Assembly (NCBI GenBank): GCA_001000675.1
Contig: LCHW01000001.1
Location: 424,875-488,874 of the forward strand
Length of the DNA stretch: 64,000 nucleotides
Source of the DNA: Candidatus Wolfebacteria bacterium GW2011_GWE2_44_13
GTDB lineage: Bacteria > Patescibacteriota > Minisyncoccia > UBA6257 > UBA9933
Reading direction: 5' to 3'
Below, in pieces: positions 56,738 to 61,516 of this stretch (position 1 is the stretch's first letter; every line of letters begins with the position of its first letter). Made by a program: the position numbers and the translations under genes. Under the pieces are notes generated by a model that searched no databases, had not been told where the DNA came from, and saw nothing but the letters and a program-made list of their open reading frames with translations.

Positions 56738-59725
56738 TTACTGCATCATATCGCGCAGCGCACAATATTCACATTCTGCATCGTCGCACCGCTTCTCCCA
56801 AAAGATGCCGTCGAGAATCTCTTGCCCTACTCGTTTAATTTCTTCTTCGAGCGCTGTAAGCTCTTCAGGTACTATCTCAAACATCTCCTTGCGATATACT
56901 CCCCTTTCGTTTGGTTCTATAAAATCAATATCGCCTGAGAGCATTCGATATTTGCCGTCCTCATGGCGATCGAGTAGTAGCTTATAAAATATCAATTGGC
57001 GTTTAATGTTGCCCTCTGACGCTTGTGTGTTTCCTTCAATATCGTTACGCGATTTTGGTTTTCCTGTTTTGTAATCGACTACGTTTACTTCGTTACCCGC
57101 ACCGATAAATTCTATCTTATCGATTTTTCCCGTTAATCGAATTTCTGGCGTTAGCATGATTCCGTTCACCGCAAATTCGGTCAATGCGTTTATTCGCCAT
57201 GCACCTTTGTAGGTGTCGTAATATCCACCTAGCGCTTTTAAGCCCTTTGCGAGCGATTCCTCGTACTCACTTTTTACGAGCGGTTGTCGTGTAAGATAGT
57301 ACGTAAATTTATCCAACAAGAATTGTTTGTCCACCTCGCGCTCTTTTATGGTGTCAAAGAAATCTTTTAACGCACTATGGATCGCGATCCCATACATTTG
57401 ATGCTTGCTGGGTGCCTTGGGGATGCGAAGCAGGTTTGTATAAAAATATTTCCATGGACATTCGAGGTAGTTATTCAACGCGGTAACAGAAAATCCATTG
57501 CGCAAAAATAATTCTCGGATGTATTCCTTATCTTTGATATCAACGCCACTTAACATGCGCGGCGCAAATAATAATTCTTTTTGTGCGCCTAACTCCGCCT
57601 CGTATGGTGCGGCATCCGCTTGTGTAAGCAAATCCTCTCGCAACTCTCCGATAAATTGTGACGGGAGCTGTGCGCGGCCGTTACTATTTATTGCCGCATA
57701 GGTAATAACGATTTCTTTCTTTGCTCGCGTTAACGCAACGTAAAAGAGTCTTCGCTCGTCTGCGTTTTCGTCCTCCTCCTCTGTGAAATCACTCCCTGCG
57801 AGTGAGAATAGTCGCTTTGGTAGCTCAAATCCGGTCTTTTTGCGTTTATTACCCCAATGGCCATCAAATGCATTAATAATATATACGTATTCAAATTCAA
57901 GCCCTTTTGATTTGTGTGCGGTCATTAAACGTACTTTGCCTGAGCCATGCCCGGCTATACTTTTCTTGATGCGAATGTTGTGCGTTTTTAATGTTTCGAT
58001 ATACGCAAAGAAATCAGCGAGGCCATATTCTCGATGCGCTTCGATTAACTTCTTAATCTCTTCGAACAGCCCACCCACAACCTCTATTTTTTCTACAGGA
58101 TTTTCACTTGCCAATATATGCCCTAAAAATCCTGACTCTCGCATAACAATTTCGAACAGTTCGGCTAATCCTTTATTGCGACTCACCACACTCCATTGCG
58201 CAATTTTCCCATACCATGCGTTAATAATCTGGGGCTTTTCGAGCTTAAGGTCGGGAGTCTGTAAGACGTCTAACGAGCGCGCTACTTCATACACTGACAC
58301 TTTGCTTCGATTTGCATAATCCATGACCTTATACAGATCAAGTGGATCAATACCTAAAAAGTCCACATGCATTGCTTCAATAAAAGACTCCTGTGAACCG
58401 AACTCATTCACTGCGCGCAATAGCATGAGTAATTTTCGAATATCCTCGTCCTCTAAAATATCCTGATCGGATGAAACCGTAAAAGGTATCTGCATTTTTT
58501 GCAGCATGTCCGCAATCGGATCCATATCTCGGTTATTTCTGTATAGCACCGCAATCTCATCTGCTGCAACTCCAGCGGCAATATGATTTGCAATATCTTT
58601 TGCAATAAGATAACGCTCCACCTGCTCATCGGCGCAATTAAAAATGCGTATGGGTGCTTCTGTGTGCGCTACATTTGCCTTCAGCTCCTTTTTCCCAGGG
58701 ATGACATTGTGCGCCGAATCAAGGATCGTTTGCGTTGATCGATAATTTTCTTCAAGCACAATTAATACAGCCTCTGGATACAGGTTCTTGAAGTAGAGGA
58801 AATTTTCAAGCGATGCTCCTTGAAAACGATAGATTGCCTGCTTTTCGTCACCCACTACAAACAGATTTGGATTGGGATGAAAGTTACACAACAATTCAAT
58901 AATCTTGTTTTGTGCGTTGTTTGTATCTTGGTGTTCATCGACAAGAATATACTGATACTGCTCTTGCAGCATTAATAAGAGGTTCTTATTAGTTGTAAGC
59001 ACCTCAAGCACTTCCATGATCATATCACTATAATCATATTTTTTATCGTCAGTTAGTCGTTTTTGATAATAGGCGTATACCAATGCAAGCTCGGCATTTT
59101 TTCTGATGCTTTTGTCGAGCTTCTGATAGTGTCCTTTCATTTTCCCTTTGTGCGCACCCTTGTCGTGATAAAGGTCTTCGATGTGCTCAAATCGTTCGCG
59201 CTCTTTGTCCACCTCCTGCGTGAATCTATCAGCACTAACGCCTTCGCGTTTCAGTTCATTAATGGCCATTAAGATGGCGCCTAAATAATGCAATGTATCG
59301 CCAAAAGGTCGCAACTCAGCGAGCGGGATTGTTTCGATTGCATCTTCAAGAATGCGAATCTGATCGACATCGGTAATGTTTTCCGAACCAATGATACGGG
59401 GAAATTCTTCTGGGTAGTCTTTTATAACATCGTTACAGAATCCGTGAAATGTATTGATGGCTACGGAATATGCTGGCCCTCCGATAAGATCCATAAGCCG
59501 ACGGCGCATAGAAGCAACGCCCGATTCTGTAAACGTCAACGCTAATACGCTACTCGGCTCCATATCGGTTGTGCGCAAAATATTCGCAATGCGTAGGGTA
59601 AGAATTTGCGTCTTGCCTGTCCCAGGGCCTGCAATAACCATAACGGGTCCTTCTATGGTGTCTACGGCGGTTTTTTGTTGCGGATTGAGTTTAGCGTATG
59701 CGTTTTTGAATGCTTCGTTCGTCAT
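56738..59725 (-). CDS. UvrD/PcrA-like ATP-dependent helicase fused to a C-terminal Cas4/RecB-like PD-(D/E)xK nuclease with a Cys cluster (AddA/AdnB-like).
   Basis: Walker A is AGPGTGKTQ. UvrD helicase motifs are present. The C-terminal Cys pattern is C...CDDAECEYC. Confidence 0.85.
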   Translation of the reverse strand: MTNEAFKNAYAKLNPQQKTAVDTIEGPVMVIAGPGTGKTQILTLRIANILRTTDMEPSSVLALTFTESGVASMRRRLMDLIGGPAYSVAINTFHGFCNDVIKDYPEEFPRIIGSENITDVDQIRILEDAIETIPLAELRPFGDTLHYLGAILMAINELKREGVSADRFTQEVDKERERFEHIEDLYHDKGAHKGKMKGHYQKLDKSIRKNAELALVYAYYQKRLTDDKKYDYSDMIMEVLEVLTTNKNLLLMLQEQYQYILVDEHQDTNNAQNKIIELLCNFHPNPNLFVVGDEKQAIYRFQGASLENFLYFKNLYPEAVLIVLEENYRSTQTILDSAHNVIPGKKELKANVAHTEAPIRIFNCADEQVERYLIAKDIANHIAAGVAADEIAVLYRNNRDMDPIADMLQKMQIPFTVSSDQDILEDEDIRKLLMLLRAVNEFGSQESFIEAMHVDFLGIDPLDLYKVMDYANRSKVSVYEVARSLDVLQTPDLKLEKPQIINAWYGKIAQWSVVSRNKGLAELFEIVMRESGFLGHILASENPVEKIEVVGGLFEEIKKLIEAHREYGLADFFAYIETLKTHNIRIKKSIAGHGSGKVRLMTAHKSKGLEFEYVYIINAFDGHWGNKRKKTGFELPKRLFSLAGSDFTEEEDENADERRLFYVALTRAKKEIVITYAAINSNGRAQLPSQFIGELREDLLTQADAAPYEAELGAQKELLFAPRMLSGVDIKDKEYIRELFLRNGFSVTALNNYLECPWKYFYTNLLRIPKAPSKHQMYGIAIHSALKDFFDTIKEREVDKQFLLDKFTYYLTRQPLVKSEYEESLAKGLKALGGYYDTYKGAWRINALTEFAVNGIMLTPEIRLTGKIDKIEFIGAGNEVNVVDYKTGKPKSRNDIEGNTQASEGNIKRQLIFYKLLLDRHEDGKYRMLSGDIDFIEPNERGVYRKEMFEIVPEELTALEEEIKRVGQEILDGIFWEKRCDDAECEYCALRDMMQ

Positions 59726-59767: not shown

Positions 59768-60283
59768 TCATTTTGCCTCCTTAATTGCCATCTCTTGTAT
59801 GCCTTCGTCTACTTTTGTTTCAATGCGACGTTCCCATTCTAATCGGCGCTCAAACCCGCTCTTTTCTACGCGATCTGAAATGCGCCAAATGCCTTTGTAT
59901 ATTTTTTGAATCTCACTAAGGAGTTCTGGCATTGTATGCTTTGTTGCAACCAATATCGATTTCTTTGTTTTAAAGAATCGCCAAATAACTGGATCGATTA
60001 AATATGCCTTTCCTCCATATTCAACGATTAATAAATCATGATGCGCACTTCGATCAATAATACCCTTGATCACATAGATGCGCGCATGGGGAAGCTCGTC
60101 GAGAATCCAATTTCCAGCAAGGTGTGCTATTTCATCGCAATATTTTTGCGATAACACTGTAAGCGGCTTATCCCCCACCTTTCCTAGGAGTGTGGCCATC
60201 ATTTTTTGCACCTGCTCGATTAGCTCCTTGTTCATATGCAAATTATATACTGTTTCTCTAGGAATGTCACCAAAAAATAACAC
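59768..60283 (-). CDS. Hypothetical protein (171 aa).
   Basis: An ORF preceded by a GC-rich leader with a terminator-like hairpin. Confidence 0.45.
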   Translation of the reverse strand: MLFFGDIPRETVYNLHMNKELIEQVQKMMATLLGKVGDKPLTVLSQKYCDEIAHLAGNWILDELPHARIYVIKGIIDRSAHHDLLIVEYGGKAYLIDPVIWRFFKTKKSILVATKHTMPELLSEIQKIYKGIWRISDRVEKSGFERRLEWERRIETKVDEGIQEMAIKEAK

Positions 60284-60302
60284 CCTGACCGAAATCAGGG
60301 TG
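60271..60302 (-). terminator. Terminator/attenuator hairpin (caccctga-ccgaaa-tcagggtg plus T-run on the minus strand) between a 27-aa leader ORF and gene 59768..60283.
   Basis: Read directly from the sequence. Confidence 0.5.
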
Positions 60303-60328
60303 TTTGCTGCGTGAGCAGGGCAACGGGG

Positions 60329-60412
60329 CTACATACACCCGTTACCCGATCGTCGGCAACCTTCTTTACAGCGGGTTACCGGGCGAAGTGCGTAGGTACG
60401 GTTTGTCCACAT
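60329..60412 (-). CDS. 27-aa mini-ORF (MWTNRTYALRPVTRCKEGCRRSGNGCM) with a strong SD gaaAGGAGGa. Candidate leader peptide or small protein.
   Basis: Translated by hand on the minus strand. It lies in a GC-rich island and is followed by a hairpin plus T-run. Confidence 0.3.
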   Translation of the reverse strand: MWTNRTYALRPVTRCKEGCRRSGNGCM

Positions 60413-60474
60413 GGGGCTCTTCCTCCTTTCTTGGCGATAGGTACTGCGAGGAATATATAACAAACTCGTGACCT

Positions 60475-60502
60475 TGTCAATATCTTTGGTATCTGCTATA
60501 GT
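60475..60502 (+). promoter_or_regulatory. Sigma70-like promoter TTGTCA-N16-TATAGT for obg, with a short leader.
   Basis: Read directly from the sequence. Confidence 0.5.
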
Positions 60503-60511
60503 ATACCCACT

Positions 60512-61516
60512 ATGTTAATCGATGATGTTGTAATCAAGGTGAGCTCTGGCCGAGGAGGGCGCGGGGCGGTTGCATTTAACAAAAACATGAAGAGCCTCGG
60601 ACCTGCGGGCGGAAGCGGCGGTAACGGCGGAGACGTCGTTGTTGAGGCCGCCTCAGATCTTAGCTTATTGAACCAATTTCGCTTCAAGAAAGAGATTTCT
60701 GCAGAAAGTGGCGAACCGGGAAAGCCGCAGTTTAACGATGGGCACACGGGCGTTGATCTTGTCCTCAAGGTGCCGGTCGGTACAATCATCCACAATATGA
60801 CAACAGGCGCCGACTACGAACTCGTAAAAATCAACGAGCGTATTGTGATTGCAAAGGGCGGCAAAGGTGGTCGTGGTAACTTCCATTTCAAATCTTCAAC
60901 CAATACCAGCCCTGTGCAGTATCAGAATGGTACACCAGGGGAAGAGTTTATGCTGCGCCTTGAGTTAAAGCTTATTGCCGACGTTGGTATTATTGGGCTT
61001 CCGAGTGCCGGTAAATCGAGTCTTCTTAATGAACTTACTAATGCACAAAGCAAGGTTGGAAACTATCCATTTACAACATTAGAGCCAAGCCTTGGTGTTT
61101 ACTATGAATTGATTCTGGCAGACATTCCTGGGCTTATCGAAGGATCAAGTCAAGGAAAAGGATTGGGAGATAAATTCCTTCGCCATATCGAGCGTACGGA
61201 AATATTATTCCACCTTGTGCCTGCTGATTCTCTCGACCCAGTGCATGATTACGAAATTATTCGTAAAGAACTCGGTGCGCATAACCCCGCGTTGCTTACG
61301 AAAAAAGAATATTTGTTCTTAAGTAAGAGTGATATGGTTAGCGAGCCGGAACTTGATGCAAAGATTGCGTTACTAAAAAAACTCAATCCGACGGTCATTC
61401 CTATCTCGGTGTACAACTGGGAAAGCCTCGACGCTGTAAAGCGTCTCCTCAATGCAGTAATCAAGGAAAAGCATTACACTACACCAGAAGTAAAAGAAGT
61501 TGTTACTGAAGAATAA
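60512..61516 (+). CDS. obg: GTPase Obg/CgtA.
   Basis: The Obg fold N-terminus is Gly-rich (GGRGGRGAVAF, GGSGGNGGDV). The G-domain motifs GLPSAGKSS and DIPGLIEGS are present. Confidence 0.9.
   Translation: MLIDDVVIKVSSGRGGRGAVAFNKNMKSLGPAGGSGGNGGDVVVEAASDLSLLNQFRFKKEISAESGEPGKPQFNDGHTGVDLVLKVPVGTIIHNMTTGADYELVKINERIVIAKGGKGGRGNFHFKSSTNTSPVQYQNGTPGEEFMLRLELKLIADVGIIGLPSAGKSSLLNELTNAQSKVGNYPFTTLEPSLGVYYELILADIPGLIEGSSQGKGLGDKFLRHIERTEILFHLVPADSLDPVHDYEIIRKELGAHNPALLTKKEYLFLSKSDMVSEPELDAKIALLKKLNPTVIPISVYNWESLDAVKRLLNAVIKEKHYTTPEVKEVVTEE

What the first reader, a model, noticed from the sequence alone, without database searches (positions are those of the whole stretch)
60271..60440. GC-rich leader with a 27-aa Arg/Cys-rich mini-ORF (strong SD) and a terminator hairpin upstream of a hypothetical gene: attenuator or small RNA
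On the minus strand the order is gaaAGGAGGa, then the ATG at 60412 encoding MWTNRTYALRPVTRCKEGCRRSGNGCM, then the stop, then a GC hairpin (caccctga..tcagggtg) with a T-run, then immediately the start of gene 59768..60283.

That is the layout of a leader-peptide transcription attenuator or a riboswitch-like terminator. The 150-nt island is far GC-richer than the flanks, which suggests stable RNA structure. It lies back-to-back with the obg promoter.
Basis: seen in the sequence. Interest (0 to 1): 0.55.

Follow-up and report, generated by a model that had tools for sequence, protein, structure and literature searches.

The report
Conserved tiny protein gene, not attenuator
The GC-rich stretch next to obg in this Wolfebacteria genome is most likely a self-contained gene for a 27-residue cysteine-pair peptide, whose roughly 19-residue core recurs in at least three bacterial lineages but matches no described family; it is not a regulatory leader for the next gene.

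Summary
They are an 11/12 sigma-70-like promoter (60480..60452), AAAGGAGG, ATG 60412, a 27-codon ORF, a hairpin, and an intrinsic terminator with a T-run (60304..60272).

They do not form a leader for the next gene. That gene has its own 11/12 promoter, with its ATG (60235) 7 nt after the -10. In relatives the gene after the unit differs, and no antiterminator can be folded.

The mini-ORF is a real coding gene. Thirteen Wolfebacteria orthologues and three deltaproteobacterial loci keep the SD, the start and the peptide core MWT-x3-[YFW]-x-[LI]-R-P-V-x-[HR]-C-K-E-G-C. Variation is mostly synonymous (pooled pS 0.71 against pN 0.27; one cross-lineage pair has 10 synonymous and 1 non-synonymous codon differences).

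Profile searches find about 85 unnamed relatives, including Omnitrophota. Nothing matches in Pfam, NCBIfam, PDB, Rfam or the paper library.

A structurally conserved hairpin always starts 8-9 nt after the second Cys codon, wherever the stop codon lies. In Desulfuromonadales-like members this hairpin is the terminator itself and sits inside the ORF.

The peptide's function is unknown. My best guess is a trans-acting thiol or metal-binding microprotein.

The parts
60452..60480 (-). Promoter of the mini-gene: -35 TTGACA (60480..60475), 17-nt spacer, -10 TATATT (60457..60452). The inferred transcription start is near 60445.
   Evidence: 11 of 12 matches. ATATTGACAAGGT...TTGTTATATA is invariant in the window and L001-L003 and present in L098-L106. 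The transcription start is inferred, not measured.
60422..60429 (-). Shine-Dalgarno sequence AAAGGAGG, 9 nt upstream of the ATG.
   Evidence: An SD of GGAGG type lies 5-11 nt before the start in all 13 orthologues. AGGAGG followed by an ATG at SD spacing is rare in the window.
60329..60412 (-). Mini-ORF of 27 codons plus a TAG stop: MWTNRTYALRPVTRCKEGCRRSGNGCM.
60356..60412 (-). Conserved 19-codon core (MWTNRTYALRPVTRCKEGC). This is the part under purifying selection. The 8-residue tail RRSGNGCM is lineage-specific and arose by stop loss: UAG in relatives has become UCG here.
   Evidence: Codon alignment. Variable sites by codon position are 11/9/17 of 18, with pS 0.71 against pN 0.27.
60318..60347 (-). 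Hairpin H1: GGGUAACGGG / CCCGUUGCCC, 10 bp, with the stop codon in the loop. It starts 9 nt after the second Cys codon.
   Evidence: A hairpin starts at +7 to +9 in all 16 sequences for which DNA was available (+8/+9 in the folds). Mean z is -4.0 against shuffles and mean sequence identity is 37%, so the structure is conserved but the sequence is not.
60272..60304 (-). Intrinsic terminator: AACACCCUGAU-UUCG-GUCAGGGUGUU (60304..60279) followed by AUUUUUU.
   Evidence: An equivalent GC stem with a U-run is present in all 13 orthologues.
60242..60270 (-). Boundary marker, not part of the unit: the downstream gene's own promoter, GTGACA-17-TATAAT. Its ATG at 60235 lies 7 nt after the -10, so the mRNA looks leaderless.
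   Evidence: 11/12. The same -10, 6-7 nt before the ATG, is seen in L002, L098, L101 and L103.
60474..60502 (+). Divergent obg promoter, TTGTCA-17-TATAGT (TG-extended). Its -35 overlaps the mini-gene's -35 on the other strand. The obg ATG is at 60512.

Best explanation
Region 60272..60480 (minus strand) is a self-contained transcription unit of about 170 nt. It encodes a microprotein of 27 aa here and 18-24 aa in close relatives.

How it most likely works:
- A near-consensus promoter, back to back with the obg promoter, drives a short mRNA.
- A perfect SD loads ribosomes onto ATG 60412.
- The functional product is the conserved 18-19-residue core x-T-x-[KR]-[YFW]-x-[LI]-R-P-V-x-[HR]-C-K-E-G-C. 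The tail after the second Cys is dispensable.
- Hairpin H1 and the intrinsic terminator set and protect the 3' end.
- The peptide then acts in trans.

Shown: the unit's autonomy; purifying selection on the coding sequence; structural conservation of H1 and the terminator; and occurrence in Wolfebacteria, Omnitrophota and Desulfuromonadales-like or other deltaproteobacterial MAGs.

Inferred: high expression, from the signal strength. Also inferred is that activity depends on the invariant [HR]-C-x3-C thiol pair, through metal binding, disulfide chemistry or a specific partner contact.

Not known: the target.
For: Autonomy:
- The unit has its own 11/12 promoter and a terminator, and the next gene has its own 11/12 promoter.
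- The unit keeps its position next to obg in 13 Wolfebacteria loci while the gene after it changes.
- In L107, L109 and L110 it again has its own 10-11/12 promoter, in unrelated contexts.

Coding:
- All 13 orthologues keep the SD, the ATG and the same frame. Length differences before the first Cys are whole codons, 13-15.
- Third codon positions vary most: 17 of 18 codons, against 11 and 9 for positions 1 and 2. Pooled pS is 0.71 and pN 0.27.
- Invariant Thr, Val, Cys, Lys, Glu and Gly each use 2-4 different codons.
- L106 against L109 differs at 10 synonymous and 1 non-synonymous codon of 18. L107 against L110 gives 6 and 0.

Breadth:
- There are 15 profile hits, 31 hits among 50%-identity representatives and about 85 at 90% identity.
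- All are unnamed or called 'hypothetical'; two are labelled Omnitrophota.
- Neighbour genes of L107 and L109 cluster with proteins of Desulfuromonadales and Deltaproteobacteria MAGs.

Cys theme:
- Four relatives carry a second upstream mini-ORF. In three it is M[TP]C[NS]G[ND]CGG, also CxxxC, with a synonymously varying Gly codon; the fourth (L105) has a different Cys/Gly-rich peptide.
- Several relatives have CHRD-like and DsbD_2+Cupredoxin genes close downstream.
Against: - There is no direct evidence of transcription or translation.
- Nothing links the peptide to a target. AlphaFold2 with the family alignment gives pLDDT 59 and no secondary structure.
- A plain 'gene plus terminator' model does not explain why H1 starts exactly 8-9 nt after the second Cys codon in three lineages. 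Meanwhile the stop codon moves (+0, +6, +18, +24) or is absent before a terminator.
- In L107 and L110 the terminator lies inside the ORF, so terminated transcripts would lack a stop codon. That is odd for a simple trans-acting protein.
- The metal or redox idea rests only on the Cys pair and on loosely linked neighbour genes, which are absent from this window.
Confidence: 0.55

Rival explanations
1. Family-level cis mechanism. The conserved peptide is a regulatory nascent chain or a ribosome-positioning device. A ribosome at codons 19-21 covers the 5' arm of H1 and so controls whether H1 forms. H1 is the terminator itself in Desulfuromonadales-like members. This would give translation-coupled read-through into the next gene, or, for stop-less members, expression gated by trans-translation as for BrfA and ArfA.
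For: - The 8-9 nt spacing between the second Cys codon and H1 is fixed in all 16 sequences, while the stop position is free.
- The sequence after the core is not conserved. This is expected if what matters is the chain in the exit tunnel up to a stall site.
- In L107 and L110 the ORF runs through the terminator with no stop. No promoter-like site was found between it and the cytochrome c7 gene.
- BrfA has a terminator inside its ORF and is made from non-stop mRNA (PMC6881298).
Against: - In the window and in all 13 Wolfebacteria loci, H1 is not a terminator because it has no U-run.
- A separate strong terminator follows H1 and is unaffected by masking H1.
- A stop codon lies before or inside H1.
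- The next gene has its own promoter. So nothing downstream is available to be regulated here.
- No sequence similarity to ArfA, BrfA or known arrest peptides was found.
Confidence: 0.17
2. One reading: a leader-peptide attenuator or riboswitch-like terminator controlling the downstream hypothetical gene 59768..60235.
For: The order SD, short ORF, hairpin, terminator, gene is present. The overall fold is more stable than shuffles.
Against: - The downstream gene has its own conserved promoter and a leaderless-type start.
- Different genes follow the unit in relatives.
- No antiterminator can be folded.
- The peptide has no run of regulatory codons, and the whole peptide is conserved rather than particular codons.
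- There is no Rfam match.
Confidence: 0.06
3. RiPP or cofactor precursor. The CKEGC end would be modified by a maturase encoded elsewhere, comparable to PqqA or other short Cys-containing precursors.
For: - The layout fits: a short conserved N-terminal part followed by a Cys-containing end.
- It loosely resembles the PqqA N-terminus MWTKP...LR. That comparison is recalled from memory and was not tested.
- The strong expression signals are typical of precursor genes.
Against: - No maturase-type gene is adjacent in any of the three contexts.
- No ORF of 120 aa or more in the 64-kb window contains CxxxCxxC.
- There are no hits to NCBIfam precursor models.
- The host has a roughly 1-Mb reduced genome: the close relative CP011209 is 984 kb.
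Confidence: 0.07
4. A non-coding small RNA, or a dual-function RNA whose main role is RNA-level. The ORF would then be incidental.
For: It is an independent transcript of about 170 nt with two stable, conserved hairpins.
Against: The most conserved segment is the ORF, and its substitution pattern is codon-based. The hairpin sequences and loops are not conserved, so they offer no conserved seed or binding site. There is no Rfam match.
Confidence: 0.05

Closest known systems
Leader-peptide transcription attenuators (trpL, hisL, and pyrL of pyrBI)
   Same: A short SD-led ORF is followed by a GC-rich hairpin and an intrinsic terminator. In the Desulfuromonadales-like members the ORF runs through the terminator stem, as the pyrBI leader peptide does (established knowledge).
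   Different: - Here the unit ends at its own terminator and the next gene has its own promoter.
- There is no antiterminator alternative.
- There are no regulatory codon runs.
- The whole peptide is conserved across several bacterial lineages and across unrelated gene neighbourhoods.
BrfA / ArfA alternative ribosome-rescue factors (PMC6881298)
   Same: These are small basic proteins. A hairpin or terminator sits at a conserved place in the ORF, and the sequence beyond it, including the stop codon, is irrelevant. L107 and L110 have exactly this layout.
   Different: - There is no sequence similarity.
- The core is only 18-19 aa, against about 55-62 aa for ArfA and BrfA.
- In the window and in the other Wolfebacteria members a stop codon precedes H1 or lies in it, and the terminator is downstream, so the mRNA is not non-stop.
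Bacterial microproteins and dual-function small transcripts (SR1/SR1P, RNAIII/delta-toxin)
   Same: An independent short transcript with a strong SD encodes a peptide of fewer than 40 aa and ends in a terminator. SR1P is also Cys-rich (from memory).
   Different: There is no homology. No RNA-level seed region is conserved. The phyletic spread is much wider than for those examples.
Short RiPP or cofactor precursors such as PqqA
   Same: The length is about 20-25 aa. There is a conserved N-terminal stretch and reactive residues spaced x3 near the C-terminus.
   Different: No maturase or RRE gene is nearby. There is no match to precursor HMMs. The residues involved are Cys...Cys rather than Glu...Tyr.

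Membership tests
Leader-peptide transcription attenuator | The leader ORF and the regulated gene share one transcript, with no promoter between them. | tested here: not met
   An 11/12 promoter lies at 60270..60242, and the ATG is 7 nt after the -10. The same arrangement is seen in L002, L098, L101 and L103. The downstream gene differs among relatives.
Leader-peptide transcription attenuator | Mutually exclusive terminator and antiterminator pairings. | tested here: not met
   Constrained folds with the H1 5' arm masked keep the terminator in 13 of 13 orthologues. The H1 3' arm and the terminator 5' arm are both C-rich.
Leader-peptide transcription attenuator | A run of regulatory codons matching the regulated pathway. 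| tested here: not met
   There are no tandem codon runs. The entire 18-19-aa core is conserved instead.
Leader-peptide transcription attenuator | An intrinsic terminator directly after the leader ORF. | tested here: met
   Stem 60304..60279 plus a T-run. It is conserved in 13 orthologues.
Riboswitch or other described structured RNA (Rfam) | A match to a curated covariance model. | tested here: not met
   There were no hits at gathering score in the window. Only chance-level terminator look-alikes appear at E<=10. Nothing matches at the orthologous sites in L001-L003, L107, L109 or L110.
Riboswitch or other described structured RNA (Rfam) | Conservation carried by base pairs (compensatory changes) in the sensing domain. 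| tested here: not met
   In the conserved segment, variation is concentrated at third codon positions. The window's local hairpin CGGUAACC/GGUUGCCG does not pair in L107 and has a mismatch in L110 (read from the sequences).
Bacterial small-protein (microprotein) gene | A conserved start codon with an SD at functional spacing. | tested here: met
   13 of 13 Wolfebacteria loci, plus L107, L109 and L110. Translated SD remnants (KEV, KEG) precede the Met in many database members.
Bacterial small-protein (microprotein) gene | Purifying selection on the amino-acid sequence and frame-preserving indels. | tested here: met
   pS 0.71 against pN 0.27. One pair has 10 synonymous and 1 non-synonymous codon differences across lineages. 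All indels are whole codons.
Bacterial small-protein (microprotein) gene | Detected translation product. | not testable with these tools
   This needs ribosome profiling, mass spectrometry or a tagged fusion.
ArfA/BrfA-type factor made from non-stop mRNA | A terminator or RNase III hairpin inside the ORF, upstream of any stop codon. | tested here: not met
   In the window, stop TAG 60331..60329 lies in the H1 loop and the terminator is downstream of it. The feature is met only in L107 and L110.
ArfA/BrfA-type factor made from non-stop mRNA | Homology to ArfA, BrfA or ArfT, or recruitment of a release factor. | tested here: not met
   There are no NCBIfam, Pfam or PDB hits. Release-factor recruitment cannot be tested here.
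RiPP / PqqA-like precursor | A neighbouring maturase or RRE gene, or a match to a precursor model. | tested here: not met
   Neighbours are obg, a Pfam-less 155-aa protein, a UvrD/PDDEXK helicase and Dus. No CxxxCxxC protein is encoded in the window. No precursor HMM matches.

The most novel reading that the evidence does not exclude
The peptide and the hairpin might form one device. The conserved 18-19-residue chain, together with a hairpin fixed 8-9 nt after its last Cys codon, would report on or act on the translation machinery. It could be a new kind of ribosome-directed factor whose synthesis is gated by trans-translation in stop-less members (BrfA/ArfA logic). Or it could be a nascent-chain sensor that sets terminator formation. 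Either would be shared by Patescibacteria, Omnitrophota and Desulfuromonadales-like bacteria.
Probability: 0.12. Interest if true: 0.8.

Novelty: new member of a known kind. Interest (0 to 1): 0.5.

Why it matters
Gene callers skip ORFs this short, so the family is invisible in annotation; the database copies are artefactually extended 'hypothetical proteins'. Yet it is one of the most tightly conserved sequences at this locus. It carries near-consensus expression signals in a roughly 1-Mb reduced genome, and it recurs almost unchanged in unrelated bacteria.

That makes it a concrete candidate for a widely distributed microprotein with a basic cellular role. Candidate areas are thiol or metal chemistry, or the translation apparatus.

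It also gives a clean test case for telling small coding genes from attenuators and sRNAs by sequence comparison alone.

The fixed peptide-to-hairpin geometry, and the stop-less variants, are an unexplained regularity worth an experiment.

Tried and rejected
- **Rfam:** gathering-score and permissive searches on the window and six related loci found nothing relevant.
- **tRNA/tmRNA scan:** none found.
- **Selenocysteine or UGA recoding:** I considered this for the UGA directly after Cys in L001, L002 and L103. I rejected it because other members use UAG or a sense codon (CGA) at that place, and reading through gives unconserved sequence.
- **Programmed frameshifting at H1:** there is no slippery heptamer at GAA-GGU-UGC.
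- **SRP RNA or 6S RNA:** there is no model match, and the conserved segment varies synonymously.
- **bL36 relationship:** a superficial similarity ([KR]-[VI]-R-P...C-x-x-C) was not supported by Pfam. No rpmJ gene lies in the window to compare.
- **Metagenome scan with the conserved promoter pattern:** it only re-found the three known genomes.
- **Viral-contig scan with a degenerate core pattern:** it gave one unrelated phage zinc-ribbon-like ORF, consistent with chance.
- **tblastn against plasmids:** nothing.
- **AlphaFold2:** the family alignment (pLDDT 59) and the 155-aa neighbour (pLDDT 49) were both uninformative, so no fold search was run.
- **Paralogues:** none in the 64-kb window or in the other obg loci.
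- **Literature search by motif strings:** no paper describes the family.

Full report
**Organism and setting.** Obg (60512..61516, +) is 88-91% identical to Obg of three Candidatus Wolfebacteria genomes. Its exact sequence is recorded as Wolfeibacteriota. The window is therefore from a CPR/Patescibacteria genome of about 43% GC. The finding lies in the 276-nt gap between obg and a Pfam-less 155-aa gene.

**Observation.** Reading the minus strand gives the following order:
- a promoter, TTGACA-17-TATATT (60480..60452, 11 of 12 matches);
- AAAGGAGG (60429..60422);
- ATG 60412;
- a 27-codon ORF, MWTNRTYALRPVTRCKEGCRRSGNGCM, with TAG at 60331..60329;
- a 10-bp hairpin H1 (60347..60318) whose loop holds the stop codon;
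- an 11-bp terminator stem (60304..60279) followed by AUUUUUU.

Immediately after comes a second promoter, GTGACA-17-TATAAT (60270..60242, 11/12). ATG 60235 lies 7 nt after its -10. Orthologues of that gene start at the position of ATG 60235.

The unit's GC is 0.543 against a window mean of 0.433, in the top 2.2% of 175-nt windows. It folds better than shuffles (z = -3.1), but mostly because of the terminator. No Rfam family matches, and no tRNA or tmRNA is present.

**Relatives keep the unit, not its neighbour.** I collected twelve further Wolfebacteria loci: L001-L003 from the genome scan and L098-L106 through Obg homologues at 83-90% identity. All twelve carry the same package, divergent from obg: the promoter, an SD, an ATG and a small ORF. 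Examples of the ORF are:
- MWTSKKWALAAVNHCKEGCIR
- MWTAHYRIRPVTRCKEGCIR
- MWTARFRIRPVSHCKEGC
- MWTQRNWTLAAIAHCSCGDEGGC

The gene that follows varies. It is the 151-155-aa protein in the window, L002, L098, L101 and L103. In the others it is a secreted, CHRD-like or other protein. Wherever the 151-155-aa gene follows directly, it keeps a -10 box 6-7 nt before its ATG.

**Coding test.** In the codon alignment, length differences before the first Cys are whole codons (13-15).
- Variable sites by codon position number 11, 9 and 17 of 18 codons. Mean pairwise differences are 0.28, 0.27 and 0.52.
- Pooled Nei-Gojobori proportions are pS 0.71 and pN 0.27.
- Invariant residues use several codons: Thr ACA/ACC/ACG, Cys TGT/TGC and Gly GGA/GGC/GGG/GGT. 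The largely conserved Val uses GTA/GTC/GTG/GTT, and Arg at one position uses both AGA and CGN.

This is the signature of a translated, selected peptide, not of an RNA motif.

**The family is wider than Wolfebacteria.** Three searches show this.
- A profile search of 5.8 billion predicted proteins found 15 members.
- An exhaustive HMM search of 1.84 billion representatives found 31 at E<=0.001.
- A broader profile found about 85.

All hits are unnamed or 'hypothetical' and have no Pfam domain. Two are labelled Candidatus Omnitrophota.

They appear in the databases only because the ORF is artefactually long. Either it is extended upstream through the translated SD (KEV/KEG) and even through the promoter (LTNDT..VSL is TTGACA...), or it is extended downstream past a missing stop.

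The shared core is x-T-x-[KR]-[YFW]-[MRKA]-[LI]-R-P-[VI]-[TSA]-[HR]-C-K-E-G-C.

I retrieved DNA for three contexts outside Wolfebacteria.
- In L107 and L110 the unit sits between glycolate-oxidase-like genes and a triheme cytochrome c7 gene.
- In L109 it follows a DUF362/ferredoxin gene.
- Proteins at least 90% identical to neighbours in L107 and L109 are labelled Desulfuromonadales or Deltaproteobacteria MAGs.
- Each unit has its own 10-11/12 promoter.

Between lineages the peptide is nearly frozen while the codons drift. L106 against L109 differs at 10 synonymous and 1 non-synonymous codon of 18. L107 against L110 gives 6 and 0. Pfam, NCBIfam and PDB sequence searches, and the paper library searched by motif string, return nothing.

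**The hairpin.** In every one of the 16 sequences with DNA, a stable hairpin begins 7-9 nt after the second conserved Cys codon, at +8/+9 in the folds.
- Free energies are -17 to -29 kcal/mol.
- Mean z against shuffles is -4.0.
- Mean sequence identity of the segment is only 37%.
- Stem positions 4-10 use all four Watson-Crick pair types.

So the structure and its position are conserved, but the sequence and the loop are not.

The stop codon is not fixed. It lies directly after the Cys (+0) in L001, L002, L103 and L106, and at +6 in seven loci and L109. It is at +18 in L101, where it is the first of four tandem in-frame stops in the H1 loop, and at +24 in the window.

It is missing altogether in L107 and L110. 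There the hairpin is itself the U-tailed terminator, and the ORF runs through it; PPGxPGG is the translated stem. The window's longer tail arose by stop loss: AUA CGC UAG in relatives corresponds to CGA CGA UCG here.

**Attenuator test.** If a ribosome is imitated by forbidding pairing of the H1 5' arm, the terminator remains the minimum-energy structure in all 13 Wolfebacteria sequences, and no competing helix appears. The H1 3' arm and the terminator 5' arm are both C-rich, so they cannot pair. Taken together with the downstream gene's separate promoter and the changing downstream gene, this rules out the trp- or pyrBI-type reading for this window.

**What it most likely is.** It is an autonomous, probably strongly expressed mRNA for a microprotein whose functional part is the 18-19-residue core. 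The signals support strong expression: a near-consensus promoter and a perfect SD, in a window where AGGAGG followed by an ATG at SD distance is rare. H1 and the terminator would define and stabilise the 3' end.

The invariant [HR]-C-K-E-G-C suggests that the thiol pair is central, through metal binding, disulfide exchange or a specific contact. Two things give weak support.
- Four relatives have a second Cys-rich mini-ORF. In three it is the CxxxC peptide M[TP]C[NS]G[ND]CGG; in L105 it is MKRRCPGCGCGCGEGGG.
- Several relatives have CHRD-like and DsbD_2+cupredoxin genes nearby.

This functional guess is inference only. AlphaFold2 gave no confident fold.

**What remains unexplained.** The constant spacing between peptide and hairpin, the freedom of the stop codon and the stop-less terminator-in-ORF variants are not required by a simple gene model. 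They resemble two known designs. One is arrest or positioning peptides, in which only the chain up to a stall site matters. The other is BrfA/ArfA, whose ORFs contain a terminator or hairpin so that they are made from non-stop mRNA and are gated by trans-translation (PMC6881298).

In the window itself a stop codon precedes the terminator, and nothing downstream depends on it. I therefore rank this as a rival for the family as a whole (0.17) and as the most novel reading still open.

**Verdict.** The finding is a new, unannotated microprotein family of unknown function found in several bacterial lineages, which makes it a new member of a known kind. Interest is moderate.

Noticed in passing
L001:3820-3900(-), L002:3820-3900(-), L103 and L105 (reverse complement of about 1230-1390): Four Wolfebacteria relatives carry a second SD-led mini-ORF upstream of the main one, in the same transcript. 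It reads M[TP]C[NS]G[ND]CGG* (TTG start, CxxxC again, with the Gly codon varying GGC/GGG/GGA), or MKRRCPGCGCGCGEGGG* in L105. A conserved hairpin, GCAAGCGGUCGCUUG, follows it. The window lacks this.
   Followed up: partly
window 60474-60512 (+) and 60452-60480 (-): The obg promoter (TTGTCA-17-TATAGT) and the mini-gene promoter share overlapping -35 hexamers on opposite strands. The obg ATG lies 9 nt after its -10, so it looks leaderless. RNA polymerase binding to the two promoters may be mutually exclusive.
   Followed up: no
window 59768-60283 (-): The 155-aa neighbour has no Pfam or NCBIfam match and gives a low-confidence AlphaFold model. Its true start is ATG 60235, not GTG 60283. It appears to be transcribed as a leaderless mRNA from GTGACA-17-TATAAT. 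It is conserved near the mini-gene in the Wolfebacteria loci whose flanks extended far enough to check.
   Followed up: partly
L001:1387-3610, L003:1450-3614, L099-L101, L104: Relatives have genes inserted between the mini-gene and the UvrD/PDDEXK helicase. These encode secreted proteins (some CHRD-like with the motif AHIHxGxC) and a DsbD_2+Cupredoxin_1 membrane protein. The window (and L103) lacks them; here the helicase gene (56738..59725) follows directly.
   Followed up: no
L107:4001-4504 and L110:148-652: In Desulfuromonadales-like contigs the homologous mini-ORF sits directly upstream of a triheme cytochrome c7 gene. It has no stop codon before its terminator hairpin, and no promoter-like site lies in between. 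In L107 the extended ORF ends 12 nt before the cytochrome start codon.
   Followed up: partly
L101 (reverse complement of about 1320-1345): The loop of hairpin H1 contains four in-frame stop codons in a row (UAG UAG UAA UAA).
   Followed up: no
window 1-64000: The whole 64-kb window has no tRNA or tmRNA gene and no Rfam hit at gathering threshold. Few long ORFs have an SD-like motif (5 of 41 with a 4-mer core, based on a crude first-ATG start).
   Followed up: partly
L111:5100-5315 (-): An IMG/VR phage contig encodes a small protein, MKTCSCCKNIKPFERFSVNDYGRPISHCKEGCGD..., whose second Cys knuckle matches the core motif RP[VI]SHCKEGC. The match is probably chance, since the pattern is expected about once in the collection. 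It does hint that the motif could be half of a zinc-ribbon-like knuckle.
   Followed up: partly
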